A DNA stretch of 64,000 bases from a virus (Duplodnaviria; Caudoviricetes). The DNA is taken from the IMG/VR virus record IMGVR_UViG_3300044611_001018. The stretch is one strand, 5' to 3'. Below, piece after piece: positions 1-45,210 of the stretch (position 1 is its first letter; every line of letters begins with the position of its first letter). The notes under the pieces were generated by a model. That model was not told where the DNA came from. It saw nothing but the letters and a program-made list of their open reading frames with translations, and made no database searches. The position numbers and the translations under genes are program-made.

Positions 1-1952
1 TGGTGAGGTTGAGTTGCTGTAAAGATATTAGAGGTAATACTATTAATACCAATTGCTGTTCTACCTACAGTAGATAATTTTGTAGCAGATACCTCATAAT
101 TACCAGTTCCCTGTGTCTCTGGCATTACAATTACAGATTCTTTGGTAACACCAATGTTACCAATATTAATAACAACTTTTAATTTGTCCTGATTTTTCGC
201 ACCAATTCGATATCCTTCTAATACTGATTTTGGTGGTATATTTCTATTGGTCTCATTATAAAGATAAAGTCTAGAAGTATTACCTACAGAAATTGTTTTC
301 TCAACGTCAATAGGAGCAAATTCAATAGTTATTTCATTATTATCAACTCTTTGTGGTGGTAAAATATGGGTAATATATCCAGTATCATCTCTTGGGAAAG
401 CGTCATTTCTGAATCCTCTACAAACAATTGCCTTTGCACCAAAGTTTGAGTTGGAGTTTGTAATCGAATGGTCTCCACCAGATTCTGCAACAAAGTGATT
501 TGCATATCCAATAGCAAACACAGAAACTAGTTGAAGGAATGCATCATTTGATGCTTTAATATGGAAGTTTTCGTATGCTGGTTTATATACTGCAGAAGAA
601 TTGGTATGAAGGTTTGAAACAGCAGTAGAATCTTCATAAACACCAGATACTGCATTATATTTTACAAATGCATTATCGTCTTTCTGTAGTCCAATACCAG
701 TGAACTGAGCAACCACCATGGATTTAAATCCATCAGCTTTGCTACCATCCGCATGAAGTCCACACATTCCATAAACGGAACGTAAAGAACAATTGAAGAT
801 ATATGGAGATGCAGAAGTAACACTGTCAACTACAATATTAAGAGTTGGAGCACCTGATACAATAGCAGGAAGAGGATTTACAGGTGCTGTAGAAACCTCA
901 TAAGTAACCCGAGTTGTAGATTCTACAGTTTTTACAACATAAGAACCATTGTATCCACCACTAGGAATACCTTCAATTCTAATCGGAGTATCTACATCCA
1001 ATCCATCAACAGATTCAACAAGATCTACTGTAATTTTCTTACTGGAAGTTACACCATCACCTGCTCTGATACTAGAAATTCCAATATTTTGACCTTTAGA
1101 ACCAACAATTCGGAATTCATCAATTTTTGATTGAACATCAATTGCAGCACTTGGATAATCAGGTGAAATAGATCTTCCACTAGAAGGACCATATACTAAA
1201 CCGATTTTTTCATAATAAATGTCAAGGTCGGTTCTAGTCGTATTGTAATTTAAATAAGTATCATTAAATTTTACAGGATTTACACCATCCGCATATTCAA
1301 AACAAGTTAGTTTATGGTGAGAGAAGTTGGGAACAAACTTTGATGTGCCATAATCTTTATATACATTTGAGTTTGGATCCGCATCAAAAAATGTAAACTG
1401 ATAAAAATAACAAGTACCAGTTACTCGAAATAAACAAGTTGAATCAACTGTATTGTCTTGAGGACTTGGAACAAACCTTGGACGAATCTTTGTTTTACGA
1501 AGATCCATACCAACGATTGATGTGCCACGAGGAATGATAACTCCACCATAAACGGAGTTCATTTTATAAAGATCATTCTCTGGAGAATCAATGTCAAAAT
1601 CAGAATTTAAAGTAAATTCTGTGAGGTCATTAGAAGATGCACCACTTCTAGTTAACCAATTATTACCAGAAATAGGAGCGTCATGTACAGGAATCCATCC
1701 TGGTCTATTGTCGATTACATGTTCGCCAGGATAAACAATGATAGTTGTTCTACTAAATCTATCATTATCAAATCCTTTTTGATATGAGAATCTTGCTGCC
1801 TCAATCAGTGCCCTTTGAATTGTTTTAAAAGGTCTAACTAATGAGTTACCTTGGTTTTCAATACTATCTGTAGAGTCTATACTGGAAGGATCGACGTATA
1901 GAATATCGCCTCTACTATTTTTCAGAAAATTATCTAAGCGACTAAGACCCAT
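1..1952 (-). CDS. Large virion structural/tail-fibre-like protein, 5' part only (runs off window start)
   Basis: ATG at 1952 reads MGLSRLDNFLKNSRGDILYVDPSSIDSTDSIENQGNSLVRPFKTIQRALIEAARFSY; frame appears open to position 1; the YVD..D..N.G.....FKT motif is typical of cyanomyophage fibre proteins. Missing from the ORF track because the stop lies outside the window. Confidence 0.75.
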   Translation of the reverse strand, partial: MGLSRLDNFLKNSRGDILYVDPSSIDSTDSIENQGNSLVRPFKTIQRALIEAARFSYQKGFDNDRFSRTTIIVYPGEHVIDNRPGWIPVHDAPISGNNWLTRSGASSNDLTEFTLNSDFDIDSPENDLYKMNSVYGGVIIPRGTSIVGMDLRKTKIRPRFVPSPQDNTVDSTCLFRVTGTCYFYQFTFFDADPNSNVYKDYGTSKFVPNFSHHKLTCFEYADGVNPVKFNDTYLNYNTTRTDLDIYYEKIGLVYGPSSGRSISPDYPSAAIDVQSKIDEFRIVGSKGQNIGISSIRAGDGVTSSKKITVDLVESVDGLDVDTPIRIEGIPSGGYNGSYVVKTVESTTRVTYEVSTAPVNPLPAIVSGAPTLNIVVDSVTSASPYIFNCSLRSVYGMCGLHADGSKADGFKSMVVAQFTGIGLQKDDNAFVKYNAVSGVYEDSTAVSNLHTNSSAVYKPAYENFHIKASNDAFLQLVSVFAIGYANHFVAESGGDHSITNSNSNFGAKAIVCRGFRNDAFPRDDTGYITHILPPQRVDNNEITIEFAPIDVEKTISVGNTSRLYLYNETNRNIPPKSVLEGYRIGAKNQDKLKVVINIGNIGVTKESVIVMPETQGTGNYEVSATKLSTVGRTAIGINSITSNIFTATQPH

Positions 1953-2016: not shown

Positions 2017-2178
2017 TTATTTTGCTAACATATACTCAACAGTATTTGCAACATCGTTCATAGCATCACGTAAATCAGGTCTTTGACCAGATTCTTGTCT
2101 TAAAATAGGTCGGGAATCATCAACAAGGGTCCAACGCCATTGACCCATTTCTTTGCAGTGCCAAAGATTAATTTTCAT
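2017..2178 (-). CDS. Small hypothetical protein (53 aa), cyanophage type
   Basis: Hand translation MKINLWHCKEMGQWRWTLVDDSRPILRQESGQRPDLRDAMNDVANTVEYMLAK*; overlaps the 3' end of the upstream gene. Confidence 0.7.
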   Translation of the reverse strand: MKINLWHCKEMGQWRWTLVDDSRPILRQESGQRPDLRDAMNDVANTVEYMLAK

Positions 2179-3274
2179 ATGCAGGATTACTCCAATCGTT
2201 AGTAAAAGATCTAAGATATTCTATTTTTTCTAACATTTCTTGACTATCAAGAACAAATTCTTCATTAGCAAAATGAAGTTTGCAGTTGTGTTCTAATGCA
2301 AGATTCATTATATATGTTCTTCTGGATTTGTCATCAGGTAAAGAAAAAATACTAAACAAAATGATATGATCTAAATTTGTATGTTTTATAGAATACTCTA
2401 AAAATGAGTGATTTCTTCCTTCATTATCTCCAGTTTGATGTGGAAATTTATAACCCATCCTAGAACAATACTCCCTAACAGTTAATGTCTGAAAGTATAA
2501 ATCAATATGTTTGGTTTTAAATCCTTCATATTCTGCATAGGTTACCACATTTTCATGTGGTAAAATTTCAATCTTGCGAGACTGAATATCTGTATCATGC
2601 AATCTTCTAAAGTATGCCCCTGGCCATTTTCGATGAGGTTGTCCATCTCTTAGTAATAATCTTACATCAATACTCATTCTAGTTTTTCCAGTTCTATTTG
2701 GTACTCCACCATGAATATTTTCTTGAGTAAAAAGTAAAAATGTTCCAGGAGACATATTTACTGGATAACATTCTTGAGTACAAACCTCTTCTAGTTTTTC
2801 ATGAGACCATTTTTCTTTCTCAGACATACGAGTAATTTCTCTACTCTTATCAATTCCAATAATTTGGAGTGAATTTGTATCAAAAGTTTCTGTAAAAGGT
2901 AACCAAACAGTTCTTAATCCGAGACCATTACCAACCCATCTACCTTGATGGAATGGAAGAACAGTCCCATTCTTATCTTGATTGGGAATTGTTGCCCTAA
3001 TATTACCAAATTTTTGTATAAGAATATCAGTATTTAACTGCGGAACAACATATTCTTCTACCATCCTATCAAATAAAATATAAAAATCAGTATCAACAAG
3101 ATCTTTAGTTAAATGTTTTACTAGTTCTCCAATAGAATTTGAAGATACATGTTCATGGAGATATTGAAGATCTTTTACTTCTGGGTAATATTTTTGAACT
3201 AGAGATAACAAAATATCCCCAAAAGGATATTTGTTCATATCATATTGATTGTGAGTAGCGTCAAATATAAGCAT
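2168..3274 (-). CDS. Fe(II)/2-oxoglutarate oxygenase (PhyH/StrG-like) with an HQG metal motif (halogenase-like), fused to a C-terminal domain resembling the LIC12192 'sporadic carbohydrate cluster' family
   Basis: PFHQG...VWLP...NIHGG...RMSIDVR double-stranded beta-helix motifs; C-terminal VREYC...IILFSIFSLPDD...LHFANE segment. Confidence 0.65.
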   Translation of the reverse strand: MLIFDATHNQYDMNKYPFGDILLSLVQKYYPEVKDLQYLHEHVSSNSIGELVKHLTKDLVDTDFYILFDRMVEEYVVPQLNTDILIQKFGNIRATIPNQDKNGTVLPFHQGRWVGNGLGLRTVWLPFTETFDTNSLQIIGIDKSREITRMSEKEKWSHEKLEEVCTQECYPVNMSPGTFLLFTQENIHGGVPNRTGKTRMSIDVRLLLRDGQPHRKWPGAYFRRLHDTDIQSRKIEILPHENVVTYAEYEGFKTKHIDLYFQTLTVREYCSRMGYKFPHQTGDNEGRNHSFLEYSIKHTNLDHIILFSIFSLPDDKSRRTYIMNLALEHNCKLHFANEEFVLDSQEMLEKIEYLRSFTNDWSNPAYEN

Positions 3275-3290: not shown

Positions 3291-3362
3291 AGCCCCCGAC
3301 TGGATTTGAACCAGCGACCAACGGTTTACAAAACCGTTGCTCTACCACTGAGCTACAAGGGC
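3291..3362 (-). tRNA. trnT: tRNA-Thr(UGU)
   Basis: GCCCTTG/CGGGGGC acceptor stem, D-arm AGCTCAGTGGTAGAGC, anticodon loop TTTGTAA, T-loop GGTTCAAATCC; no encoded CCA. Confidence 0.95.
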
Positions 3363-3363
3363 A

Positions 3364-3651
3364 TTAATAATCATCTAGTTCTGCTAAAACCTCAGGATTT
3401 TCTAAATCCATTTCAAAAAAACACGGATGTGCTTCTTCCATTATTAAGTATGCAGAAGCTCTGAATAAATCTTCTGCAGTATATGTAAGGTTATTATTAG
3501 CTTCAATAATAGTAGATGGGTCTGCTTCTTCCTCTTCGGTTAAATCATCCCAAGTGAACGGTATAGAATTAACAAAGTACATCATAACAACGTTCTTTAT
3601 ATTTATTTCTGGAGAATGCCAGCAATAAGCTTTGGTGATTCTAAGCTTCAT
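3364..3651 (-). CDS. Hypothetical protein, cyanophage type
   Basis: 95-aa ORF between two tRNAs, acidic C-terminus. Confidence 0.7.
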   Translation of the reverse strand: MKLRITKAYCWHSPEINIKNVVMMYFVNSIPFTWDDLTEEEEADPSTIIEANNNLTYTAEDLFRASAYLIMEEAHPCFFEMDLENPEVLAELDDY

Positions 3652-3726
3652 TCTCTACACCGTTTCTTTATATTTAGTTTAAGGAAGGCGGAGAGTTATA
3701 CTCAATCCCTTTAATATTCCTTCCAG

Positions 3727-3809
3727 TAGGAGCGGGGGGACTTGAACCCCCACAGGCAATGCCCGACAGATTTTAAGTCTGGTGTGTCTACCGATTCCAC
3801 CACGCTCCC
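3727..3809 (-). tRNA. trnL: tRNA-Leu(UAA)
   Basis: GGGAGCG/CGCTCCT acceptor stem, GGAATCGGTAGACAC D-arm, CTTAAAA anticodon loop, variable arm, GGTTCAAGTCC T-loop; no intron. Confidence 0.95.
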
Positions 3810-4055: not shown

Positions 4056-4126
4056 AGCGAATGACGGGGATCGAACCCGTGACACCAACTTGGAAGGATG
4101 GGATGTTACCGCTACACCACATTCGC
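4056..4126 (-). tRNA. trnG: tRNA-Gly(UCC)
   Basis: GCGAATG/CATTCGC acceptor stem, CTTCCAA anticodon loop, GGTTCGATCC T-loop; one U-U mismatch in the anticodon stem. Confidence 0.9.
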
Positions 4127-5006: not shown

Positions 5007-5747
5007 GTGAAAGTTGCTCTATTATTAACTGGATATATGAGGAATTGGGAGAACCACTTCCAAAACATAAAAACCAATATTATTGACAAATATTCAACTG
5101 ATGTATACATCAGTTCTTACAGTTATTCTGAACTTTACATGGGTTCTGATATAGTTCAGATAGATGTAGATGACATAATAAAGAAATATAATCCAAAAAA
5201 TTATTTGTTTAGAGATAAAGAAACTCTTCCAGAATTTAAATTCAAATCAAATGGATTAGAGATAAATGGAAGAGAATGGTCATATAGAATATTAAGACAA
5301 TGGTATACAAATTATCTGGGATTACGAATATTTGATCCTAGAGAATATAATATTGTAATTAAATGCAGAGCAGACTTCTCTATAAAAAACTTTCACCTTC
5401 AAACAAATAAAGACTTGGTTTTGCCTGTGTGGAAGGTTCATCCAGGTCCATGCAATCCAGAAGATTCATATGTGGATTACTTTGCACATGGAAATGGATA
5501 TTGGATGAAAAAATATCTTAAATTGTATGAAAAAACAAAAGAGATGCATGATAATGATTGGGGTGATGTCTCCTTGGGAGAAACCCTAATCAAATCATAC
5601 ATCGATAGGTATATTGGTTCTGAACATATCACATTAGATTATGATATGGATTGGAAGATGAGAGATGAACCTTGGATGTCTGAGGTCCAGAACATTTATA
5701 AAAAACACGACCCTCTCAAAGTTGTAACCATTGAGAAGGATGTGTAG
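5007..5747 (+). CDS. Hypothetical glycosyltransferase-like protein (KVALLLTGYMR...VIKCRADF type)
   Basis: 246-aa ORF with GTG start; N-terminal beta-strand plus G.xR and later RxD motifs of a kind seen in glycan-locus proteins. Confidence 0.5.
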   Translation: MKVALLLTGYMRNWENHFQNIKTNIIDKYSTDVYISSYSYSELYMGSDIVQIDVDDIIKKYNPKNYLFRDKETLPEFKFKSNGLEINGREWSYRILRQWYTNYLGLRIFDPREYNIVIKCRADFSIKNFHLQTNKDLVLPVWKVHPGPCNPEDSYVDYFAHGNGYWMKKYLKLYEKTKEMHDNDWGDVSLGETLIKSYIDRYIGSEHITLDYDMDWKMRDEPWMSEVQNIYKKHDPLKVVTIEKDV

Positions 5748-6390
5748 AACCCTGATGGTAATCTGGATTTTGTGGTTTTAAAGTAACACGAATATCACCA
5801 GGAATCACAAGACGTTCACCCTTTCTCTCAGTAAACTTTTGAGTAAAGTGCCCAATTTTACTTGGAAAAATTACTACACTACCCTCGATAGGGGTAATAC
5901 TATAAACATTACAATTATAACGATTATATCCAGTGATTAAATTCTTTTGTAGTGCCTCAGTGAACATATCACCAACACATTCATTAGGATTTTTTTCTTG
6001 TGCTACGCAAAATTTATCAGAAGTCTCATCAGTTTTAACATAATAAACAAAACTCAAATCTGATGCATTATGATTATGGGGTTTAATTGATGGTGTATCA
6101 TCATCTTTATGGTATCCAACCCAAGACTTGATGATATGATAATCAAGTTTTGAATAGTCCACATTAAGATATCCAAAATAATTATCTACATGACTGCGAA
6201 GTTCTTCAAAAAATGGACGATAAATCTCATTTTGGTGTGCAAAAATCCTACCAGAATACTCTGGACTTTCGTTTTGATAACCATCAAACCAATAATCACG
6301 AAGTTCTTCCAAGTAAATCTTAATTTTATCCTGGGACTCCACCATTCCCTGATAAACAATCAGAGGGAATGCTTCATGTACTCGGTGCAT
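5716..6390 (-). CDS. Fe/2OG oxygenase, TIGR02466-like
   Basis: IIKSW...PHNH...SFVYYV...EGSVVIFPS..GH...R..I motifs. Confidence 0.75.
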   Translation of the reverse strand: MHRVHEAFPLIVYQGMVESQDKIKIYLEELRDYWFDGYQNESPEYSGRIFAHQNEIYRPFFEELRSHVDNYFGYLNVDYSKLDYHIIKSWVGYHKDDDTPSIKPHNHNASDLSFVYYVKTDETSDKFCVAQEKNPNECVGDMFTEALQKNLITGYNRYNCNVYSITPIEGSVVIFPSKIGHFTQKFTERKGERLVIPGDIRVTLKPQNPDYHQGSTHPSQWLQL

Positions 6391-28333: not shown

Positions 28334-29446
28334 TTATCCACCAAGAAATAAATTCTTTAATGGATACTTTGTTTTTTTGTTTAGGAGATGATGCCAAACA
28401 TATTTGGCACCACCAACAGCAGTTCCACCATCATGAGATAATGGGTCAACATAAAAATTGACATTTGGAAATGCTTTAATATACTCATAATTATTAACAC
28501 AGTTTAAAAAGTAACCACCAGATAAAACAATGTTATTTGTTTGAACTTTATCAAGTAACATCTGTATTAGTCTAATAGTATGCTCTTTAGTTTCATTCTG
28601 TAGTTTTTTTGCAAGATTTGAATTTTGTTCAAAAGTTGGGTTTTTTAAAAAAGATTCATCAAAATTAGGATTTACATCATCATTTTCATAAATCTTTCTA
28701 ATAGTATTTAATACATTTTTATTGTTAGTATACCATCGATCCGTTTTTTGATCATAATCAAACCAAACATCATTATCAAGTTCACTTGAATTACCATAAG
28801 GTGCTAACCCCATAATCTTACCAGCAGAATGTAGTCTAGTAACTGCAGCAATAGAGTTAAACAACCAACCACAACTTCCAGTTGAAGATAAAATTTTATT
28901 ATCCTCAATTTCAAATGGTGGATCAAAGTAAGTAATACAACTTGGAGTAAAAACTTGACTAATCAATTCACACTTTCCAGTCTCTGAAAAGTAAAACATA
29001 GATTCAGATTCTCTATTGCGTATGTAATCTCTAACATATGCACCACCACCATCTAAAACTAATGCAGCCGCCTCATTAAATTCTGACCCATAAAAAGCAC
29101 TACATGCATGATACAAATGATGTTCCAGATAATAATGCTCTTCTCCGTAAGTTATTGTCCATTGAGATAATTGTTTTTTAACCTCCTCAATCATCTCCTT
29201 ATCAGATTCTTCAGCATAAAAATCTTCTGTATAACTATCACCTCTACAAAAGGATACAAAGATAATGTGGTCAAGATGTTTTGTATACTTTAAAATATCA
29301 GTGATAGAACGAATATAACTTTTTAACGTCCATGGTTCTTCCTTTCTTTTGTTCCATCTATCATCTTCCAAATAATATATGAGTTCTCCATCTTTAAGAA
29401 GAGCAAGAGATGGATGGTGTGATATGTTAACTCCAAGGATGTACAT
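28334..29446 (-). CDS. Carbamoyltransferase (CmcH/NodU/TobZ family), stand-alone Kae1-like half
   Basis: ILGVNISHH...HHLYHACSAFY...DGGG...GKIMGLAPYG...LSGGYFLNC..N...DGGTAVG. Confidence 0.85.
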   Translation of the reverse strand: MYILGVNISHHPSLALLKDGELIYYLEDDRWNKRKEEPWTLKSYIRSITDILKYTKHLDHIIFVSFCRGDSYTEDFYAEESDKEMIEEVKKQLSQWTITYGEEHYYLEHHLYHACSAFYGSEFNEAAALVLDGGGAYVRDYIRNRESESMFYFSETGKCELISQVFTPSCITYFDPPFEIEDNKILSSTGSCGWLFNSIAAVTRLHSAGKIMGLAPYGNSSELDNDVWFDYDQKTDRWYTNNKNVLNTIRKIYENDDVNPNFDESFLKNPTFEQNSNLAKKLQNETKEHTIRLIQMLLDKVQTNNIVLSGGYFLNCVNNYEYIKAFPNVNFYVDPLSHDGGTAVGGAKYVWHHLLNKKTKYPLKNLFLGG

Positions 29447-29448
29447 AA

Positions 29449-30033
29449 TCAGTCATTTAAACAAGTGTATAATTTATTTTCTTCTGGAAGATAAAGATAC
29501 TCTATACGACTATTAGAGATAGTGGTAAGAGCATCATAAAGAGTATGGCAAATTACTTCTCCCGCAAGATTAAACGAAGTATTAAACAACATTGGAATGT
29601 TTGTTCTACTATAAAAGGTTTTAATTAAATTATAGTAGTGATAATTTTGTTCTTCAGTTACAGTTTGAATTCTGCAAGTATCGTCAACATGAAGAACTCC
29701 TGGAATTAATTCTTTTTTTTCTTCTTTAACTGGAATTGCATACATCATAAACGGAGATTCTTTTATAGTCAACATTTCAAACCATTCATGAGCATGTTCA
29801 AGTAAGACTGAGGCAGCAAATGGTCTCCACCACTCTCTTCTTTTTACCGAATTAACAAATTCTTTAGCATCAGAATCTCTAGGGTCATAAAGAATAGACC
29901 TATTACCTAAAGCTCTTGGTCCTGCTTCAGTTTTACCTTGAAAGATTGAAACAATATTTTTTTTATCTATTAGATCTACAATGTCTGAGTACGTAACATT
30001 ATATTGTTCCGTTGTTTTATCATTCCCAACCAT
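29449..30033 (-). CDS. Carbamoyltransferase, stand-alone YrdC-like half
   Basis: GKTEAGPRALGNRSIL...KRREWWRPFA...HVDDTCRIQTV...NTSFNLAGE. Confidence 0.88.
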   Translation of the reverse strand: MVGNDKTTEQYNVTYSDIVDLIDKKNIVSIFQGKTEAGPRALGNRSILYDPRDSDAKEFVNSVKRREWWRPFAASVLLEHAHEWFEMLTIKESPFMMYAIPVKEEKKELIPGVLHVDDTCRIQTVTEEQNYHYYNLIKTFYSRTNIPMLFNTSFNLAGEVICHTLYDALTTISNSRIEYLYLPEENKLYTCLND

Positions 30034-33950: not shown

Positions 33951-34685
33951 TTATTTAGAATTGTTGTACAAGACATAATCTTGACTGTATACATCTATAA
34001 ATTTTTGATGCCTTAAACAATAGTCATTAAAAATCTTACAACATAATTCATAGTTTTTAATTTTTAAATACTCACCATCCATTAAATTTTTTTTCTTTAT
34101 TGGAACTTCGCAACCAATAAAATCAGATATTTTTTGTTCAAAAAACTCATCGATTCTAATAAGATTAATGTCAAAGTTTATTTTTGATGGTTGAAAGCAG
34201 TAATCTATAAATCTAAACTGTGGCAAAGTATGCCCATCAAATATAAATTTTTTGTTTCTTAACTCTAATAATATATCTCTAGAGTTTGGTGTAGAAAGAT
34301 AAACCCCAACCTCGCTAAGAAATTGATTGAATCCAGAAATCCATCTATCCTTTGGATGCCTAGTAACAACTAAAATTTTATATTCTTTTTTATATTCTTC
34401 TGGTATTTCTAAATCAAATTGACTCTGAACATTTGGTACTTGGTACACAGGTTCAAAGTCAATTAAATTCTTTAAAGAAGTTGATGCATTTTTTGATATT
34501 GGTATGTATAGAATTTTATATCTTTTAGATATGTAAAATGCATCAAATTCAACTGTCTCTATACCATCTGGTGTATAATCTAAAAAATATTTTTTAGATA
34601 CACATTTATCTATTTGTTCCCTATACTGGTCCCAATCAAAATTATAACAATCAGATGAGTTCATCCGAATCGCCACCATATTCAT
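33951..34685 (-). CDS. Sulfotransferase family 2-like protein
   Basis: YIPISKNASTS (5'-PSB-like), VTRHPKDRWISGF (3'-PB-like), HTLPQ. Confidence 0.7.
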   Translation of the reverse strand: MNMVAIRMNSSDCYNFDWDQYREQIDKCVSKKYFLDYTPDGIETVEFDAFYISKRYKILYIPISKNASTSLKNLIDFEPVYQVPNVQSQFDLEIPEEYKKEYKILVVTRHPKDRWISGFNQFLSEVGVYLSTPNSRDILLELRNKKFIFDGHTLPQFRFIDYCFQPSKINFDINLIRIDEFFEQKISDFIGCEVPIKKKNLMDGEYLKIKNYELCCKIFNDYCLRHQKFIDVYSQDYVLYNNSK

Positions 34686-36127: not shown

Positions 36128-36482
36128 GACTATATCTCCAGGCATCTTGAAGAATACCATAAAGATATTCTTTTATTTTCCTTGCTTGTGGTTTTGGTAT
36201 ATGACCATACGCCTCACGAAGAAGTTTATGTTCTGGATCTTGACCTCCTTTTAAATATTCATCTAACTCTAAAATTAGACTGTTAATGCTTTCTGCTGTT
36301 TTGCTGTCAATAAATTGCTCAGCATGACGACGCTTTGCATTATTTGTTTTGAGGTATTGATAGAAATTTAATATAAACTTTCCTTGAAAAGCAAAGTCTA
36401 CTGCCTTCTCCACGTCGTAATGGAGTGTGACAACTTCTTCTTCCATGAAAACGAATGCTCCCATTTGTAAATTATATATCAA
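36087..36482 (-). CDS. Hypothetical protein (start possibly 36446)
   Basis: VEKAVD.AF...L.FYQYLK...LREAYGHIPKPQARKIK. Confidence 0.75.
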   Translation of the reverse strand: MIYNLQMGAFVFMEEEVVTLHYDVEKAVDFAFQGKFILNFYQYLKTNNAKRRHAEQFIDSKTAESINSLILELDEYLKGGQDPEHKLLREAYGHIPKPQARKIKEYLYGILQDAWRYSHDKRPGRRKKSNK

Positions 36483-38098
36483 AAAGTAAAATTAAACAAC
36501 TGTTTCGTTTCGTAAAACCAAAGATAATCGAGAGAAGAAGAATTTAAAGTCCTAAATGCATCTTGTGGGGTTTCGACTAAAGGTTCTCCTGCCAAATTAA
36601 AACTGGTATTTAATAGGATACCATGCCCTGTCAAGTTTTTAAATTCATTTAAAATAGAATGTAAATGCCCAGAATTTACTGTCTGTATTCTACAAGTATT
36701 ATCGACATGTGTAACTCCTGGAATTAAATTTGTCTTGACAGGAAAGCAAACTGTCATGTGTGGATTTGGAATCACATTGTCAAAATAGAGATGCGCGTCC
36801 TCTTCAAGAACTATAGCAGCAAATGGTCGATACCACTCTCTATTTTTAATTTTATTAACAATATCTTTAGCATTTGGATTTAGTGCATTAAACAGTATAG
36901 AACGGTTCCCCAATGCCCTCTGACCCGCTTCTGCAAGATGATTATATACTGCAACAGACTTATTATTATAAAGTAGTCTTGCCACCTCTTTTTCATCAGC
37001 AAATGCACCTTGGTATTGTGATACATCATGGGTTAAACCATGGAAAAAAGTATCTTTAGATGGTAGTATTCTAGAGTCTCCAGACAATTGTCTATAAGAA
37101 TACATAGAAGCTCCTATGCTTAATCCACTGTCATCACACATAGGATCAAAATAAAATTTAACGTCAGGAAATCTAATGGTCAATTCATAATTGGTAATAA
37201 TATTCATACCATAACCACCAGTAATACAAACTTTTTTTATTCCAGTTTTATCTACATGTTTTTTAACCAGATTACAAACTTGTTCTTGACATTGACGTTG
37301 AACTTCGTAACAATAGTTTGAAAAAAATTGATAATTATCTTTTGTTATCTCAACCTTATAGTTTGCATCATCATTAAAATCCAGCATATAATCTAATAAT
37401 TCTGGATAATTCTTAAAATATTTTTTAATTGCTGCATCTGCCGATATTCTTTTACCAAAAAACTTTAATTTTTCTATCGCAACTCCATAGGAAGACAATC
37501 CCATTGCTTTACCACAATCATCAATTGTTTGTCCTATCGCAAGTGCAGCACTATTGTAAAGATTTCCTATATTAATTTCATCAGTATGATGTTTACAAAT
37601 ATGTCTACATCCATTTACAACTTTATCAAATCTTTTTTGTAAGTTTGCAGTCCAATATCTTTTATATAGAGGAGTGAATTTACATGGATATTCTGCAACA
37701 TATACAGAATCACATTCAAAAACTTCTGGGTCAATTGGATATCCACCTGCAGAATCAACACATATAATTAAAGACTTTTCAAATCCACTATTATAAAATG
37801 CACCAGATGCATGAAATAAATGATGGTGATACTTTGGATTTATGAATTTAATTTTAGGATTTGATAATTTAATTAATGAATCTTTTTTATCTTTATCCTC
37901 TTGACTTTCTCCAGATGAAAAAATAATATAATCAATATCGTGCAAAAAATTTTTTGAGATAATATCAAAAATAAATTTGTGCCCACCAGAGTGTTTCTTC
38001 TTATTGTACCTCTCTTCCTTAAAGTAATATTCAATTACACCATCCTTTATGACAGTTGCAGATGCATCATGTCCAGAAAAAATGGTTAGAACTTTCAT
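36479..38098 (-). CDS. Carbamoyltransferase, full-length (CmcH/NodU family)
   Basis: GHDAS...KEER...HHLFHA...GKAMGLSSYG...EAGQRALGNRS...NTSFNLAGEP. Confidence 0.9.
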   Translation of the reverse strand: MKVLTIFSGHDASATVIKDGVIEYYFKEERYNKKKHSGGHKFIFDIISKNFLHDIDYIIFSSGESQEDKDKKDSLIKLSNPKIKFINPKYHHHLFHASGAFYNSGFEKSLIICVDSAGGYPIDPEVFECDSVYVAEYPCKFTPLYKRYWTANLQKRFDKVVNGCRHICKHHTDEINIGNLYNSAALAIGQTIDDCGKAMGLSSYGVAIEKLKFFGKRISADAAIKKYFKNYPELLDYMLDFNDDANYKVEITKDNYQFFSNYCYEVQRQCQEQVCNLVKKHVDKTGIKKVCITGGYGMNIITNYELTIRFPDVKFYFDPMCDDSGLSIGASMYSYRQLSGDSRILPSKDTFFHGLTHDVSQYQGAFADEKEVARLLYNNKSVAVYNHLAEAGQRALGNRSILFNALNPNAKDIVNKIKNREWYRPFAAIVLEEDAHLYFDNVIPNPHMTVCFPVKTNLIPGVTHVDNTCRIQTVNSGHLHSILNEFKNLTGHGILLNTSFNLAGEPLVETPQDAFRTLNSSSLDYLWFYETKQLFNFTF

Positions 38099-38127
38099 AA
38101 TAAATACAAGATATTAGTGTTGTGATA

Positions 38128-38772
38128 ATGAATGTAAGAGATATATTATTTAAAGTTTATCCTAACCTAATTGAAGTAGATCTTCCCAAGTGGTTAGATA
38201 AAGAAGTAAAAGATAATAACTCAATTATAAAATCTTACGTTTGGAAAACTGATGAATTAAGAAGAATTAGACTCTGCGAATTAAACATAAGGGATAAATT
38301 TATCGCAGAGTCTCTTGTTATGTATCCAGACTTTCAATATATCAATCCAGTTTTTGGCACTGAGTATGTTTCATGTGCCAATAAAAAGTTTTTTGGCACC
38401 ATTGATTTTCATCCATTAAAAATGGACAGTGACTACGAGAACAAGTATATCAAAAAATATCTTGGCGATCAACCAAATAGAACTAAAGAAGATTCAAAAA
38501 TATACGATTTAAATACTTACTTTTCTAAAAAATTATGGTTAAAAACAAATGACCACGATTTTTATGAAGAGTACTTAGACAAATTAGAATTATATTTAAA
38601 CAGATATAATGATTGCACAAAAAAATGTGAGATGGAACTATCCCACATTTATCAAAAAGGTTATGATTATCACTTATCATATACAGACCCAGCTTATGGA
38701 ATCTTAAAGTCGTATTATGATAAATCTTTTGCTAGAAAATATATCAATGAATTTTTATTTGATCTTGCTTAA
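38128..38772 (+). CDS. Ferredoxin-dependent bilin reductase (PcyA/PebS/PcyX-like)
   Basis: LRRIR...SLVMYPD....PVFG.E....IDFHPL...YFSK...DPA.GILKSYY......YI.EFLF. Confidence 0.7.
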   Translation: MNVRDILFKVYPNLIEVDLPKWLDKEVKDNNSIIKSYVWKTDELRRIRLCELNIRDKFIAESLVMYPDFQYINPVFGTEYVSCANKKFFGTIDFHPLKMDSDYENKYIKKYLGDQPNRTKEDSKIYDLNTYFSKKLWLKTNDHDFYEEYLDKLELYLNRYNDCTKKCEMELSHIYQKGYDYHLSYTDPAYGILKSYYDKSFARKYINEFLFDLA

Positions 38773-39718: not shown

Positions 39719-40531
39719 ATGATCATACTTACTGGTTCGTCAGGATTTATTGGAAGTCATTTTGCAAATAAGTTAAATACTGGTGAAGATATACTTTTAA
39801 TTGATCAAGAAGATTCTTGGCGTCTGTTTAAAGATTTTGATGATTGGAAAAATGTCAGTCTAATCCTTCATCAAGGGGCAATTTCATCAACTACAGAAAA
39901 GGATTTACAAAAACTTTGGCACTATAATGTAGCCTTTTCATGCGCCCTTTTAAACAAAGCAATTGAATATGAGATTCCAGTGAAGTATGCTTCGTCAGCA
40001 TCAGTTTATGGCAATCAAAGTATTCATCAAACAAAAGGATCAATCAATCCTTTAAATCAATATGCCATTTCAAAACTACAGGTTGATTATACAGTCTTAG
40101 ATAACATAGAAAAATTTCCTCTTGTGCAGGGATTTAGGTACTTTAATGTATATGGTGATGGAGAAGACCACAAAGGTAACCAAGCAAGTCCTGTAAGTAA
40201 ATTTACAAAGGAAGTTAAAGAATCTGGTCAATTGAATCTTTTTGAAGGTTCTGATCGCTTCCTGAGAGACTTTGTGTGCGTTGATGACGTTGTTAATATT
40301 GTTCTCCATAACAACGCTGGAAGCGGCATCTACGACCTTGGAACAGGGTCTCCAGTATCATTTAAACATGTTGCAGAGTTAGTTGCAAAAAAAGAGAATG
40401 GCACTATTAATACCATTCCCTTTCCAGATCATTTAAAAGGCAAATACCAAACATATACATGTGCAGATATGAAGTGGATTGGTAATTATAAATTTAAAAG
40501 TATTGAAGAATATATTAATCTCCCAGAATAA
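39719..40531 (+). CDS. hldD: ADP-L-glycero-D-manno-heptose 6-epimerase
   Basis: TGSSGFIGS, HQGAISSTTE, YASSASVYG, YAISK, RYFNVYG..E.HKG..AS, RDFV.V.DV. Confidence 0.88.
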   Translation: MIILTGSSGFIGSHFANKLNTGEDILLIDQEDSWRLFKDFDDWKNVSLILHQGAISSTTEKDLQKLWHYNVAFSCALLNKAIEYEIPVKYASSASVYGNQSIHQTKGSINPLNQYAISKLQVDYTVLDNIEKFPLVQGFRYFNVYGDGEDHKGNQASPVSKFTKEVKESGQLNLFEGSDRFLRDFVCVDDVVNIVLHNNAGSGIYDLGTGSPVSFKHVAELVAKKENGTINTIPFPDHLKGKYQTYTCADMKWIGNYKFKSIEEYINLPE

Positions 40532-41203: not shown

Positions 41204-42280
41204 TTATATGTTTGAGTGATATGTAAATTGAGCATATCCAAGAGATGTCCCTTCATCTCCACACATTGGTTCTATGTATAATTCAACATCTTTTGGAAGA
41301 ATATTTAGATATTCGTAGTTAGCAACACAATTTAAAGCACACCCACCACTCAAGACTATTTTTTTTATTCCAGTAAACTGATAAGATTTTAAAATTAAAT
41401 TTGACATATATGATTCAAAATCCTTTTGCATTCTATATGCTAAATTTGCTGCTATTTTAAATTTATTTTTATTGTTCATCCATATACTAGCATCATTTGC
41501 ACCAAAGTCAATATAATCATATGGAATTAGATTGGCACCAAATGTAGACTTATAGAATAATTTAGAATTTATTGTGCCATCTAAATTTAAAAAAGATTTA
41601 ATATTGGGATCATATTCACCATATGACGATAATCCCATCAATTTTCCAGAATTTTGAGATCCAAGACCAAGATGAGATGCAACTGCAGGATATGCCATGC
41701 CAATACCCATATCCCACTCACCATGATGCTCGGAATTATTCTTTGATATAGTACTATATTTTAAACTAGTACCACAATGTATTAAATTAAATTTATCTGG
41801 ATACTCTACAATATATACAGATTCAAATTCATGGTCGTCCAAATTACCAAATCCAGTTGTAGTTTCATTTCCAAGACCATCAACTACAATTACTACAGCT
41901 TTATCAAATCCAGAATTATAAAATCCAGTGCAGGCATGTAAAATATGATGCTTATCAGATATAGACATCATATTAGTCAATTGATTTAAATTATTATAAC
42001 CAATTTTGTTGGTCATAACTTTTGTAATAACGTTCCTATAAAATGCCCACATATCGTCAACAATATGTTGATACTTTTTTGAATAGTAGGATAGAGAACA
42101 AAAACAATAATTATCATATTCAAAAAATTTATGGGATAAAAATTCAAATACTTTTGAAGGCCACCCATCTTTTTTTATCCTACTAAGTCTCTCTTCACTT
42201 AAATGTGTATCAATTTTTCCAGTACCATCAACTATAGTAATTGAAGCATCATGACTCAGATTAATTCCAATGTAATTCAT
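41204..42280 (-). CDS. Carbamoyltransferase Kae1-like half with no adjacent partner
   Basis: GINLSHDAS...SEERLSRIK.D...HHILHA..GFY...DGLG...GKLMGLSSYG...LSGGCALNCVAN...DEGTSLG, then stop. Confidence 0.85.
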   Translation of the reverse strand: MNYIGINLSHDASITIVDGTGKIDTHLSEERLSRIKKDGWPSKVFEFLSHKFFEYDNYCFCSLSYYSKKYQHIVDDMWAFYRNVITKVMTNKIGYNNLNQLTNMMSISDKHHILHACTGFYNSGFDKAVVIVVDGLGNETTTGFGNLDDHEFESVYIVEYPDKFNLIHCGTSLKYSTISKNNSEHHGEWDMGIGMAYPAVASHLGLGSQNSGKLMGLSSYGEYDPNIKSFLNLDGTINSKLFYKSTFGANLIPYDYIDFGANDASIWMNNKNKFKIAANLAYRMQKDFESYMSNLILKSYQFTGIKKIVLSGGCALNCVANYEYLNILPKDVELYIEPMCGDEGTSLGYAQFTYHSNI

Positions 42281-43050
42281 AATCCCTCAATATCAGATTC
42301 AGTAAGAACGTAGCATCCATAATTTTGAACTGCTATTGCAGATGCTTTGTTTGCAATAACAATAGCAGAAGTAATATCTTGATATCTCAAATAAGCATAA
42401 GTCAATGCAGATAAAAAAGTATCTCCAGCACCAACTACATCAAATACATTTACTTTTTCCGTAAAATAAAGGTTATCCATATATGATGCTCCATTTTCAC
42501 CAAGAGTGATAATAAGATTTTCTTTATCTGGTTTTTTTAAAAGTCTACTATATTCCTTTTGATTAATTTTAAAAAATACATTTGGATAACTAAACAACGA
42601 GGTTTTTTTAGTATCAATAAAAACTGGTCCAGAAAAATTTTGGCAAAAAACCTCCAGATCATTAGTTGTTAAATACCCCTTATCATAATCAGATATTACA
42701 ACAGCATCATATTGCATGTGAAGAAATGCAGATTTAACTTCAGATACTCTAAGTGGATCAACTTTATCTTCATCATCAATCCTAAGTAATTGTTGATTGC
42801 TATTTTTATCTACTATTCGCCTTTTAATAATACGATTTTTATTTGTAATATGATTTACAAATACTCCAAAAGATTCTAAATTTTTTTTGACATTTGCAGA
42901 CATACCTAAAGAGGTTTCTGTTCTCTCATAACTTAGAACAGGAACAGGAGCTTCTGGACTAATTCTATCTACTGTTCCATAAACATATTCATCCTCACAG
43001 GTTTCCCCGATCAATAATACTTTGAATTGTTTTTGTTGTTGAATATCCAT
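42277..43050 (-). CDS. hldA: Heptose-7-phosphate kinase (HldE/RfaE domain I, PfkB family)
   Basis: G..DRISPEAPVPV...G...NV..N...ISDYDKG...DVVGAGDTF. Confidence 0.85.
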   Translation of the reverse strand: MDIQQQKQFKVLLIGETCEDEYVYGTVDRISPEAPVPVLSYERTETSLGMSANVKKNLESFGVFVNHITNKNRIIKRRIVDKNSNQQLLRIDDEDKVDPLRVSEVKSAFLHMQYDAVVISDYDKGYLTTNDLEVFCQNFSGPVFIDTKKTSLFSYPNVFFKINQKEYSRLLKKPDKENLIITLGENGASYMDNLYFTEKVNVFDVVGAGDTFLSALTYAYLRYQDITSAIVIANKASAIAVQNYGCYVLTESDIEGL

Positions 43051-43404: not shown

Positions 43405-45210
43405 TCAATCAGTATTTTTTACTACAATTAACCTATTATATTCTGGAAGATATAGGTATTCAATTTTAGAATTTGCAAGTGTGCGAAGAGCATCATCTAA
43501 AGTTTCAACCAAAGGTTCTCCACCTAAATTAAATGATGTATTAAAAATTATTGGGCATCCAGTTTGATTATAAAATTCATTAATTAATCCATAATAATGG
43601 AGATTAACATCTTCAGTAACTGTTTGGATTCTACAAGTACCATCAACATGAATAATTGCAGGTATTTTTTCTTCAATTCCATCCTGACACTTAACAGCAT
43701 ACATCATAAATGGAGTATCTTCCATTCCACGAAGATCAAACCAATCATGAACATGCTCTTTAAGAATTGACCCAGCAAATGGGCGGAAGTATTCTCTTCG
43801 TTTTACAAGATTTACATGGTCTTTACCATTTAGGTCTCTTGGATCATATAGAATAGATCGATTACCCAGTGCTCTAGGTCCCGCTTCCGATTTCCCTTGG
43901 AACAAAGCAACAATATTTTTTTCAGTAATTAATTTTACAACATCACTATACTGAACTCCTTCAATTATTTTAGTAGCACCATATTTGTTACAGGTGTCTT
44001 CAATTTCTTCATCAGAATAATTATATTCTGGACCATAATATAGATTAGTAATTCTATTCATAATATTCATATTACCATTTATTTGATGATGAATTAAAAG
44101 AGCTGCTCCAATTGCAGTTCCAGCATCATTACTGACAGGTTCAACAAAAAGATTTATACCATCTTTTTTAAGTTTATCAAGATACCAGTAATTAGCAACA
44201 CAATTTAATCCATATCCACCAGAAAGAACAACATTTTTATTACCAGAAATCTCAACGGCTTTATAAATCAAATCAAGAACCATTTGTTGAGATTCTACCT
44301 GAATGGCATATGCCAAATCTCTTCTATTTTGAAGTTTAGTTAAATCCTCACAATCTTTGGGGGTGGTTAGAAATTCATATCGACCTTCATTAACAACAGC
44401 ACCATTCGGATAAGTTGGAACTATAACATTTCTATCAGCAGTTTTCCAAGACCCACCACCACCATCAGTATAAATTTTTGGTACATTTTTATTTGGTTTT
44501 CCGTATGGGAATAAACCCATAGTTTTACCAGCTTCAATAGGTGCCCATCCACAATACTGAGTTACTGCTTCATATGCCTTTGTAATTCCAGCACTCTCAT
44601 CAAGAATTAATTCATGAGTACCTTCTTCACCCTCACCGTCGCTGGGAAATTCTTTAATTTTAGCAGACCCCCAAGGACCTCTTCCCGCTTGGTGTTTATA
44701 TAATGTTTTAAAATTTGCAGGATACCCACAAGAAAATATTGACTCCAACTCCCAAGTCATTTCTAATTCATTTTTTCTACCAAAGCTCATCGGGATGAAT
44801 GTTCCAGCACCATCAACAACTAAAGACACAGCACTATCAAATCCAGATCTGTAAAAAGCACAGGCAGCATGTAATTTATGATGGGTTCTACTCAAATCAA
44901 TTACTTGAGGATGATTATATGGATCTTCATTTCTACTAATCAGTCCAAGCTTTCTTGCAAGTCCCGTATAGATATCATCTCCAGTAAAATCAATTCTTCC
45001 AGAATCTCCAAGTGGTTGAGTATGTGCAATTACAAGATAGTCAAGTTTATCAGTATATTCTAATATCTTTACCATAGAGGCAAGAGGTCCACCATCATAC
45101 TTATGCCTGGATAATCTCTCTTCTTCTATAGAAATAACCAGTTCACCATCTTTAAGTAAACAAATGCCAGAGTTATGCCCTCTGGCAACAGCAGCAATCC
45201 ATTGTGTCAT
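43405..45210 (-). CDS. Carbamoyltransferase, full-length
   Basis: GHNSG...EEERLSR.KYD...HHKLHA...DGAG...GKTMGL.PYG...GPRALGNRS...RPFAGS...NTSFNLGGEP. Confidence 0.93.
   Translation of the reverse strand: MTQWIAAVARGHNSGICLLKDGELVISIEEERLSRHKYDGGPLASMVKILEYTDKLDYLVIAHTQPLGDSGRIDFTGDDIYTGLARKLGLISRNEDPYNHPQVIDLSRTHHKLHAACAFYRSGFDSAVSLVVDGAGTFIPMSFGRKNELEMTWELESIFSCGYPANFKTLYKHQAGRGPWGSAKIKEFPSDGEGEEGTHELILDESAGITKAYEAVTQYCGWAPIEAGKTMGLFPYGKPNKNVPKIYTDGGGGSWKTADRNVIVPTYPNGAVVNEGRYEFLTTPKDCEDLTKLQNRRDLAYAIQVESQQMVLDLIYKAVEISGNKNVVLSGGYGLNCVANYWYLDKLKKDGINLFVEPVSNDAGTAIGAALLIHHQINGNMNIMNRITNLYYGPEYNYSDEEIEDTCNKYGATKIIEGVQYSDVVKLITEKNIVALFQGKSEAGPRALGNRSILYDPRDLNGKDHVNLVKRREYFRPFAGSILKEHVHDWFDLRGMEDTPFMMYAVKCQDGIEEKIPAIIHVDGTCRIQTVTEDVNLHYYGLINEFYNQTGCPIIFNTSFNLGGEPLVETLDDALRTLANSKIEYLYLPEYNRLIVVKNTD

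What the first reader, a model, noticed from the sequence alone, without database searches (positions are those of the whole stretch)
2168..3274. Phage Fe/2OG enzyme with an H-Q-G metal motif: candidate radical halogenase
Seen: the first iron motif is CAT CAA GGT (His-Gln-Gly, 2950-2942). The distal His (NIHGG, ~2711) and the 2OG-binding R-x-S (RMS) are intact. Known: Fe/2OG hydroxylases use H-x-D/E, while Fe/2OG halogenases (SyrB2, CytC3, WelO5, BesD) replace the carboxylate with Ala or Gly to free a site for halide. Inference: this phage gene may encode a halogenase or another non-hydroxylating Fe/2OG enzyme, possibly acting on a sugar or sugar-nucleotide. I know of no characterised phage halogenase.
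Basis: partly seen in the sequence, partly recalled or inferred. Interest (0 to 1): 0.82.

Follow-up and report, generated by a model that had tools for sequence, protein, structure and literature searches.

The report
Phage sugar oxygenase with shifted iron site
A gene common in uncultured marine cyanophages encodes an iron/2-oxoglutarate enzyme that has swapped its usual aspartate iron ligand for glycine while gaining a Gln-Glu pair beside the second histidine. It could be a sugar halogenase, but more likely it is an oxygenase whose third ligand has moved.

Summary
ORF 2168-3274 (-) encodes 368 aa with H109-Q110-G111 (2950-2942), distal H188 and R199-M-S201. The N-terminal domain is a confident PhyH-type double-stranded beta-helix. 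It is fused to a TIGR04323 domain that folds like a serine-recombinase catalytic domain.

H-Q-G is invariant in 80/80 homologues and in 72/72 viral loci that cover the motif. More distant relatives, including every true TIGR04324 member tested, carry canonical H-x-D.

The Asp-to-Gly switch is tightly coupled to one other position, Gln184, four residues before the distal His. Gln184 is present in 23/23 Gly rows and 5/104 Asp rows. The switch needs 9 changes on a careful tree, at least 6 of them on well-supported branches. Glu185 follows less strictly.

A review states that HygX, a sugar-modifying H-x-G enzyme, places its relocated iron-binding Glu at this -4 position. The halogenases SyrB2 and CytC3 keep a small Ser there.

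Bacterial homologues lie in glycan clusters. In phages the gene lies next to a giant tail-fibre gene.

My reading is a sugar-tailoring Fe/2OG enzyme with a migrated third ligand (about 0.4). Halogenase is the main rival (about 0.27). I could not read model coordinates, so the ligand set is inferred. The same stretch was noted once more by this scan, in an overlapping window of the same genome.

The parts
2168..3274 (-). Whole gene: 368-aa two-domain protein (P0001), stop codon included
   Evidence: ORF list and translation. 81 homologues found. 288 IMG/VR stretches encode a relative.
2579..3274 (-). N-terminal domain, residues 1-232: PhyH-type double-stranded beta-helix Fe/2OG oxygenase fold
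   Evidence: AF2 model with pLDDT 91.5. VIA-align: PtlH Z 14.9 (rmsd 3.3, 203 aligned), AviO1 12.7, EvdO1 12.4, CurA Hal 11.1, HygX 11.0, SyrB2 11.0. Pfam PhyH 24.4 bits against cut-off 22. TIGR04324 88 bits against cut-off 150.
2942..2950 (-). H109-Q110-G111: proximal iron His, with Gly where Asp/Glu normally binds iron
   Evidence: Sequence. Invariant in 80/80 homologues and 72/72 viral loci. Aligned to the HxD of PtlH. Relatives read H-x-D at the same columns.
2711..2725 (-). Q184-E185-N186-I187-H188: distal iron His preceded by the Gln-Glu pair that co-varies with Gly111
   Evidence: Q184 is present in 80/80 homologues and E185 in 78/80. Q184 is found in 23/23 Gly rows against 5/104 Asp rows. 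The co-switch is repeated on a careful tree. Column 184 is the best covariate of column 111.
2672..2680 (-). R199-M200-S201: predicted 2OG C5-carboxylate binding strand
   Evidence: R199 is present in 80/80 homologues and S201 in 73/80. The stretch aligns to PtlH 'RMSMD'. The role is inferred by homology.
2171..2578 (-). C-terminal domain, residues 233-368: TIGR04323 (LIC12192 family) with a resolvase-like alpha/beta fold and unknown role
   Evidence: TIGR04323 58.8 bits against cut-off 55. Separate AF2 model with pLDDT 87.9. PhiC31 integrase catalytic domain Z 11.5, rmsd 3.8, 128 aligned. Foldseek hit to TP901-1 integrase at 2e-5.
2017..2178 (-). 53-aa ORF whose start overlaps the end of the oxygenase gene (phrog_2818, function unknown)
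3364..3651 (-). 95-aa ORF upstream (phrog_4134, function unknown), a conserved neighbour in 52 of 80 viral loci
3..1952 (-). N-terminal part of a giant tail-fibre gene (phrog_529), a conserved downstream neighbour in 49 of 80 viral loci. It runs off the window.

Best explanation
The gene encodes an active Fe(II)/2-oxoglutarate enzyme of the PhyH structural class that tailors a sugar, sugar nucleotide or glycan. Iron is held by His109 and His188, and 2OG is anchored by Arg199/Ser201. The usual Asp two residues after His109 has been replaced by Gly. The vacated coordination position is served from the loop just before His188, by Gln184 (position -4) together with Glu185 (-3). This is a ligand migration of the kind reported for the sugar-modifying enzyme HygX. 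On this reading the enzyme still forms a ferryl intermediate and performs an oxygenase-type reaction (hydroxylation, keto formation, epimerisation or oxidative cyclisation) on a carbohydrate C-H bond. The fused resolvase-fold TIGR04323 domain would bind or further process the same substrate. In the phage the product probably changes a host-cell glycan during infection. Shown here: the fold, the conserved motifs, the Asp/Gly-Gln184 coupling and the gene contexts. Inferred: which atoms bind iron, the reaction, the substrate and the role in infection.
For: (1) Fold and catalytic residues: AF2 pLDDT 91.5. The closest structures are PhyH-type oxygenases, several of which act on sugars: EvdMO1 Z 13.0, AviO1 12.7, EvdO1 12.4, SnoK 12.0. 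H109, H188 and R199 are invariant.
(2) Among 127 cluster representatives, 104 have Asp and 23 have Gly at position 111. Gln184 is present in 23/23 Gly rows and 5/104 Asp rows. Glu185 is present in 16/23 against 3/104. Column 184 is by far the strongest covariate of column 111.
(3) On a careful ML tree with the trait columns removed, Gly/Asp needs 9 changes, at least 6 forced by starred branches, and 0 of 200 bootstrap trees allow a single change. In 6 independent pairs, Gln184 moves the same way in 5 and never the opposite way. Repeated swapping inside one clade with the same architecture fits two equivalent ways of building one site.
(4) HygX is described as H-X-G...E-X3-H with the acidic ligand relocated (PMC13374393). 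Gln184 has exactly that spacing.
(5) Position -4 is small in enzymes that do not use it: PtlH Ala; EasH, PrhA and TlxI Gly; the halogenases CytC3 and SyrB2 Ser.
(6) Carbohydrate context: Roseivirga chromosome locus L008 and locus L091, and phage locus L001 next to an epimerase, DegT and radical SAM genes.
Against: I could not read model coordinates, so no Fe-ligand geometry was measured. The HygX comparison rests on motif spacing quoted from a review, not on a residue-level alignment. HygX was not reached by HMMER, and its fold score (Z 11.0) only ties with SyrB2 and CurA Hal. The residue at -4 is always Gln and never Glu in more than 100 sequences, although Gln-to-Glu is a single base change. 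That is odd for a simple relocated carboxylate, and fits a hydrogen-bond donor to a bound anion at least as well. Glu185 is Gly or Ala in five Gly-type cluster representatives (P0089, P0093, P0098, P0102, P0105), so it cannot be a universal ligand. I found no paper in the held library describing a 2-His-1-Gln site. The sign test on independent pairs only reaches p = 0.06.
Confidence: 0.4

Rival explanations
1. Radical halogenase. Gly111 leaves a coordination site for chloride or bromide. Gln184 donates a hydrogen bond to the halide and Glu185 acts as a second-sphere gate. The ferryl abstracts a hydrogen from a sugar carbon and the radical rebounds onto the halide.
For: H-x-G is strictly conserved. 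It replaces H-x-D in relatives together with second-sphere changes, which working halogenases are known to need, because loss of the carboxylate alone does not give halogenation (PMC2767507). The -4 residue is always the neutral amide Gln and never Glu, which suits anion binding. BesD-family halogenases keep a conserved non-ligand Glu (E119) next to the halide site, so Glu185 is compatible. The top Foldseek E-values are to the CurA halogenase domain at 1.2e-8. From my own knowledge (not tested here), the BesD family also mixes hydroxylases and halogenases.
Against: The PhyH-fold halogenases CytC3 and SyrB2 keep Ser at -4, which leaves room for chloride. A Gln there has the reach of the HygX Glu ligand and would sit where the halide should be (inference from geometry). 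By Z-score, hydroxylases rank above halogenases: PtlH 14.4-14.9 against CurA Hal 11.1, SyrB2 11.0, HalB 10.0 and WelO5 9.8. TIGR01762 'chlorinating enzyme' scores 12.5 bits against a cut-off of 226. At least six Asp/Gly switches in one clade with unchanged architecture and glycan-cluster context would mean repeated changes between C-OH and C-Cl products. I know of no halogenated sugars in bacterial surface glycans (own knowledge).
Confidence: 0.27
2. Substrate-completed iron site. The vacated position is taken by an anionic group of the substrate (a carboxylate, sulfate or phosphate of a sugar or sugar nucleotide). Gln184 hydrogen-bonds to that group, and turnover is gated by substrate binding.
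For: A strictly conserved amide at -4 and a cationic residue (Arg/Lys) at 112 in most close homologues (R 57, K 5 of 80). Sulfotransferase genes lie in the bacterial cluster and in the phage window. Nucleotide-sugar genes are nearby.
Against: There is no direct evidence. Residue 112 is Ile or Val in the bacterial members. The substrate is unknown.
Confidence: 0.15
3. Non-catalytic or non-iron protein. Loss of the carboxylate has abolished normal iron chemistry, and the domain serves only as a sugar-binding module for the C-terminal domain.
For: Asp-to-Ala/Gly variants of prolyl 4-hydroxylase lose activity, and the TauD Asp-to-Ala variant does too.
Against: Both His residues, the 2OG-binding Arg and some 35 other positions of the N-domain are invariant down to 32% identity. 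That would not be expected if catalysis had been lost.
Confidence: 0.05

Closest known systems
HygX (hygromycin B orthoester synthase, Streptomyces hygroscopicus; PDB 4XCB)
   Same: PhyH-type Fe/2OG fold (Z 11.0, rmsd 4.3, 202 aligned). Acts on a carbohydrate. Has H-X-G in place of H-X-D/E. Carries a long polar residue four positions before the distal His, described as H-X-G...E-X3-H in PMC13374393.
   Different: The -4 residue here is Gln, never Glu, and an adjacent Glu185 is usually present. No sequence similarity was detectable by HMMER. This protein is fused to a TIGR04323 domain and is encoded by phages and glycan clusters, not an antibiotic cluster.
TIGR04324 'sporadic carbohydrate cluster 2OG-Fe(II) oxygenase' together with TIGR04323 (LIC12192 family)
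   Same: These are the nearest named families, with the same two modules. The C-domain passes the TIGR04323 cut-off (58.8 against 55). JGI annotates homologues with both names. The carbohydrate-cluster context is the same.
   Different: The N-domain scores 88 bits against a cut-off of 150. True members are standalone proteins of about 250 aa scoring 208-323 bits, and they carry canonical H-x-D. Here the two modules are fused and the Asp is Gly. Neither family has a known function; a literature search found no paper.
PtlH (1-deoxypentalenic acid 11-beta-hydroxylase; PDB 2RDN)
   Same: Best structural match (Z 14.4-14.9) and the only PDB sequence hit at E of about 1e-3. It shares F-H-Q, W-x-P and R-M-S-x-D.
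   Different: PtlH has the normal H-Q-D triad, Ala at -4, a terpenoid substrate and a single domain.
SyrB2 / CytC3 / CurA Hal (PhyH-fold Fe/2OG halogenases)
   Same: Same fold (Z 11.0-11.1) and no carboxylate at position +2 after the first His.
   Different: They have Ala rather than Gly, Ser rather than Gln at -4, and carrier-protein-tethered amino-acid substrates. The TIGR01762 model is not matched (12.5 bits against 226).
VirX1 (flavin-dependent halogenase of cyanophage Syn10)
   Same: A characterised halogenase encoded by a cyanophage.
   Different: It belongs to an unrelated enzyme class (FAD-dependent, electrophilic halogenation of aromatics). It is relevant only to the claim that no phage halogenase is known.

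Membership tests
Fe(II)/2OG oxygenase superfamily, PhyH structural class | Double-stranded beta-helix fold | tested here: met
   AF2 pLDDT 91.5. PtlH Z 14.9, rmsd 3.3, 203 aligned; many PhyH-type hits at Z 11-13. Pfam PhyH 24.4 bits against cut-off 22, covering residues 150-200 only.
Fe(II)/2OG oxygenase superfamily, PhyH structural class | Two iron-binding His (proximal and distal) and an Arg for the 2OG C5 carboxylate | tested here: met
   H109, H188 and R199 are invariant in 80/80 homologues. They align to the H-x-D, distal His and R-M-S-M-D of PtlH.
Fe(II)/2OG oxygenase superfamily, PhyH structural class | [quoted passage not shown] | tested here: not met
   Gly111 in 80/80 homologues and 72/72 viral loci. 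Relatives have Asp at this column.
TIGR04324 (sporadic carbohydrate cluster 2OG-Fe(II) oxygenase) | Score above the curated cut-off of 150 bits | tested here: not met
   88.3 bits. True members score 208-323 bits and are standalone H-x-D proteins.
TIGR04323 (LIC12192 family sporadic carbohydrate cluster protein) | Score above the curated cut-off of 55 bits | tested here: met
   58.8 bits over residues 245-354
Fe/2OG radical halogenases (SyrB2 type) | Ala/Gly in place of the carboxylate ligand | tested here: met
   Gly111
Fe/2OG radical halogenases (SyrB2 type) | Match to the chlorinating-enzyme model TIGR01762 | tested here: not met
   12.5 bits against a cut-off of 226.3
Fe/2OG radical halogenases (SyrB2 type) | Open halide pocket: small residue four positions before the distal His | tested here: not met
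   CytC3 and SyrB2 have Ser (F-W-S-x-x-M-H); this family has Gln184. That this residue lines the chloride pocket in SyrB2 is recalled from Blasiak et al. 2006 and was not verified here.
Fe/2OG radical halogenases (any type) | Halide bound to iron and a halogenated product | not testable with these tools
   Needs protein chemistry or a metal-aware structure
HygX-type relocated facial triad | H-X-G plus an acidic ligand at E-X3-H | tested here: inconclusive
   H-X-G is met. Position -4 is Gln184, not Glu, and Glu185 sits at -3. The HygX motif is taken from a review. No residue-level alignment to HygX could be made.
Serine recombinase catalytic domain (C-terminal domain only) | Resolvase-like alpha/beta fold | tested here: met
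   4bqq_B Z 11.5, rmsd 3.8, 128 aligned. Eleven recombinase entries have Z of at least 8.3, well above the sugar-binding lobes at Z 5-6.5.
Serine recombinase catalytic domain (C-terminal domain only) | Nucleophilic Ser after the first strand, and a DNA-binding domain | tested here: inconclusive
   The first strand reads V-T-Y-A-E-Y-E-G with no Ser, and nothing follows the domain. The tools gave no residue-level structural alignment.

The most novel reading that the evidence does not exclude
The enzyme is a genuine Fe/2OG radical halogenase that chlorinates or brominates a sugar or glycan. [quoted passage not shown] A second novel reading is not excluded either: a 2-His-1-Gln iron site that has repeatedly interchanged with 2-His-1-Asp.
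Probability: 0.27. Interest if true: 0.85.

Novelty: new variant of a known kind. Interest (0 to 1): 0.6.

Why it matters
The 2-His-1-carboxylate triad is the hallmark of Fe/2OG enzymes. Natural departures from it have so far meant either halogenases or the single relocated-ligand case of HygX. This is an uncharacterised family, abundant in environmental sequence, in which Asp-to-Gly has switched back and forth at least six times, each time together with one specific residue (Gln184). That gives a natural experiment on how the third ligand position controls reactivity. If the enzyme is a halogenase, it would add a viral, carbohydrate-directed radical halogenase for biocatalysis, and would imply halogenated glycans in the sea. 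If Gln or Glu binds iron, it would extend the HygX exception to a whole family and add a neutral-amide variant of the triad. Either way it identifies a conserved accessory gene next to the tail-fibre gene of uncultured cyanophages. That gene probably remodels glycans during infection.

Tried and rejected
(1) Fe-site geometry. The AF2 models could not be read as coordinates (only FASTA files reach the script box).
(2) Residue-level alignment to HygX. HMMER profiles of the family did not reach HygX. The McCulloch 2015 paper is not held. The motif comes from a review only.
(3) Asp203 as the substitute ligand: rejected, because the H-x-D enzyme PtlH has the same R-M-S-M-D.
(4) Asp69 and His40 are invariant in close homologues. 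They lie in the N-terminal helical part and co-vary only weakly with Gly111. They are not excluded as lid or substrate residues.
(5) Using the fold to separate halogenase from oxygenase failed. CurA Hal 11.1, HygX 11.0 and SyrB2 11.0 are tied, while hydroxylases score higher. Foldseek E-values put CurA Hal first, but only marginally.
(6) Cultured phages: tblastn against 50,697 GenBank phage records found no homologue, even at E up to 1. PHROGs gave no family.
(7) Literature on TIGR04324, TIGR04323 or LIC12192: no paper found. Searches for '2-His-1-Gln' and SyrB2 Ser231 found nothing useful.
(8) A recombinase function for the C-domain was considered and set aside. The domain has no Ser after strand 1, no DNA-binding domain, and a carbohydrate context.
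(9) Complex prediction was not used, because no protein-protein claim is made.

Full report
**The observation**

The minus-strand ORF 2168..3274 encodes a 368-aa protein, P0001. I read the codons directly.
- CAT CAA GGT at 2950-2942 gives His109-Gln110-Gly111.
- CAA GAA AAT ATT CAT at 2725-2711 gives Gln184-Glu185-Asn186-Ile187-His188.
- Arg199-Met-Ser201 lies at 2680-2672.

**What the protein is**

Pfam finds only the C-terminal part of a PhyH domain, at 24.4 bits against a cut-off of 22. NCBIfam splits the protein in two.
- Residues 32-206 resemble TIGR04324, 'sporadic carbohydrate cluster 2OG-Fe(II) oxygenase'. The score is 88 bits, below the cut-off of 150.
- Residues 245-354 match TIGR04323, the LIC12192 family, at 58.8 bits against a cut-off of 55.

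An AlphaFold2 model built on 28 homologues is confident: pLDDT 91.5 and pTM 0.89. Only the Gly-rich loop 111-120 is weaker, at about 67.

Residues 1-231 form a PhyH-type double-stranded beta-helix. An unbiased VIA-align search gave these Z-scores:

| Structure | Z |
|---|---|
| PtlH | 14.4 |
| EvdMO1 | 13.0 |
| ColD | 12.7 |
| AviO1 | 12.7 |
| EvdO1 | 12.4 |
| SnoK | 12.0 |
| CurA halogenase | 11.1 |
| HygX | 11.0 |
| SyrB2 | 11.0 |
| HalB | 10.0 |
| WelO5 | 9.8 |

One search agrees. Foldseek E-values put the CurA halogenase first, but only marginally. The fold therefore places the protein in the class but cannot separate oxygenase from halogenase.

The C-terminal domain was modelled alone (pLDDT 87.9). 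It folds like the catalytic domain of serine recombinases: phiC31 integrase gives Z 11.5, and eleven recombinase entries have Z of at least 8.3, well above the next group of hits. Its first strand reads VTYAEYEG and has no Ser.

**Is the Gly real and conserved?**

Among 80 full-length homologues down to 32% identity, H109, Q110, G111, Q184, H188, R199 and D203 are each invariant. E185 is present in 78/80, the other two having Cys and His. IMG/VR holds 288 viral stretches that encode a relative. Of the 80 loci fetched, all 72 that cover the motif read H-Q-G, and 71 of the 72 read Q-E-x-[IL]-H-G. HMMER aligns the family's 'pfHQ-Grwv' with PtlH 'PFHQDGFYI'. Relatives of the same length read H-x-D in the same columns. 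Gly therefore sits exactly where the carboxylate ligand belongs, and it is under selection.

**The wider family and the key result**

A profile of the N-domain found 1239 proteins among 1.84 billion cluster representatives. I aligned the best 150 to the profile; 127 of them cover both motifs. Of these, 104 have Asp and 23 have Gly at position 111.

All true TIGR04324 members tested are standalone proteins of about 250 aa, score 208-323 bits and read H-x-D. Fused proteins of about 370 aa occur with either residue and score 58-105 bits.

One other column tracks the Asp/Gly choice almost perfectly, and a second follows it less strictly.
- Gln184 is present in 23/23 Gly rows and 5/104 Asp rows.
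- Glu185 is present in 16/23 Gly rows and 3/104 Asp rows.

No other column comes close.

I built a careful maximum-likelihood tree of 47 rows with the trait columns removed.
- Asp/Gly needs 9 changes, and at least 6 of them are forced by well-supported branches.
- None of 200 bootstrap trees allows a single change.
- In six independent pairs on supported branches, Gln184 changes in the same direction five times and never in the opposite direction. The sign test gives p = 0.06, close to the best that so few pairs can give.

The two positions have therefore been exchanged together, repeatedly, inside a clade that keeps the same two-domain architecture.

**What position -4 means**

[quoted passage not shown] Gln184 has exactly this spacing to His188.

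In structurally known enzymes that do not use this position, it is small.
- PtlH has Ala.
- EasH, PrhA and TlxI have Gly.
- The halogenases CytC3 (FWSNTMH) and SyrB2 (FWSTLMH) have Ser.

The Asp-type relatives here mostly have Pro, Ser, Ala, Gly or Thr. I recall that the SyrB2 Ser lines the chloride pocket (Blasiak et al. 2006). I could not verify that in the held library.

A long polar side chain at -4 thus appears only where the Asp is missing. In the one solved precedent, that side chain is the metal ligand. This is why I rank ligand migration first. Two points weaken it.
- The residue is always Gln and never Glu, though one base change would convert it.
- Glu185 is Gly or Ala in five Gly-type representatives.

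A neutral amide suits a hydrogen bond to a bound anion at least as well as it suits direct coordination. BesD-type halogenases also keep a conserved non-ligand Glu beside the halide site. The halogenase reading therefore stays open. A third possibility is that an anionic group of the substrate completes the site.

**Substrate and biology**

The window belongs to a T4-like cyanomyovirus.
- It carries gp32, gp59, PhoH, ThyX, baseplate and tail-tube genes and a bilin reductase.
- Its gp32 is 69% identical to that of Synechococcus phage S-SM2.
- The source record is a 125.8-kb IMG/VR virus.

In 80 viral loci the gene keeps the same neighbours.
- A 95-aa ORF (phrog_4134) lies upstream.
- A 53-aa ORF (phrog_2818) overlaps its end.
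- A giant tail-fibre gene (phrog_529) lies downstream.

No cultured phage in GenBank has a homologue, even at E = 1.

Bacterial members sit in glycan clusters.
- In a 957-kb Roseivirga contig the gene lies between two NodZ/FUT8-like fucosyltransferases. Nearby are a sulfotransferase, a GT2, an ABC-2 exporter, GDP-mannose 4,6-dehydratase and an epimerase.
- A second metagenomic locus shows the same set of genes.
- In another phage lineage the gene follows an epimerase, a DegT aminotransferase and a B12-binding radical SAM gene.

The window itself carries four carbamoyltransferase loci, a sulfotransferase-like gene, an NDP-sugar epimerase-like gene and a PfkB-like fragment. A carbohydrate substrate is thus well supported by context, but the actual molecule is unknown.

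**Comparison and verdict**

The protein works like a PhyH-type Fe/2OG sugar-tailoring enzyme. It fails the curated cut-off of TIGR04324 and lacks the canonical triad. It does not match the chlorinating-enzyme model (12.5 bits against 226). I found no paper on the family and none on a 2-His-1-Gln site. The statement that no phage halogenase is characterised needs correcting: VirX1 of cyanophage Syn10 is one, though it is flavin-dependent.

I rate the readings as follows:

| Reading | Confidence |
|---|---|
| Migrated-ligand oxygenase | about 0.40 |
| Halogenase | about 0.27 |
| Substrate-completed site | about 0.15 |
| Inactive module | about 0.05 |

The rest is left for readings not considered here. 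The finding is a new variant of a known kind. It gives a clear and cheap experimental test.

Noticed in passing
window 2171-2578 (-), residues 233-368 of P0001: The TIGR04323 domain, a family of unknown function, is predicted to fold like the catalytic domain of serine recombinases (phiC31 integrase Z 11.5). It has no Ser after the first strand. Its invariant residues are Q262, Y269, C270, N284, E285, S308, L312, D314, H334 and N337.
   Followed up: partly
window 3291-3362, 3726-3809, 4056-4126 (-): Three tRNA genes lie just upstream of the oxygenase gene, interleaved with small conserved ORFs: Thr-TGT, Leu-TAA and Gly-TCC.
   Followed up: no
window 5716-6390 (-) and 46386-46991 (-): The same window holds two further 2OG-Fe(II) oxygenase-like genes. 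One matches PF13759 / phrog_81, the other DUF6445 / 2OG-FeII_Oxy_3.
   Followed up: no
window 28334-30033, 36479-38098, 41204-42280, 43405-45210 (-); 33951-34685 (-); 39719-40531 (+); 42277-43050 (-): The window carries several genes of sugar-tailoring type: four carbamoyltransferase loci (one split into N and C halves), a sulfotransferase-like gene, an NDP-sugar epimerase/dehydratase-like gene and a PfkB-like fragment.
   Followed up: partly
window 38122-38772 (+): A ferredoxin-dependent bilin reductase gene (PF05996, 96 bits). This is a typical cyanophage auxiliary gene and supports a cyanobacterial host.
   Followed up: no
L001 1-21137 (JGI 3300049819 contig, another phage lineage): The homologue P0053 follows an epimerase, a DegT aminotransferase and a B12-binding radical SAM gene. 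It precedes GTP cyclohydrolase I, PTPS, a cytidylyltransferase-like gene and a phosphoribosyltransferase. This looks like a larger nucleotide or sugar modification island.
   Followed up: no
P0094 and P0099 (cluster representatives): Two intermediate site designs exist. P0094 has H-S-D together with Glu at position -4. P0099 has H-N-D together with the Gln-Glu pair. These may be snapshots of the ligand switch.
   Followed up: no
window 2017-2178 (-): A 53-aa ORF (phrog_2818) starts 11 bases before the end of the oxygenase ORF, stop codon included, and so overlaps it. This suggests translational coupling between the oxygenase and the tail-fibre gene.
   Followed up: no
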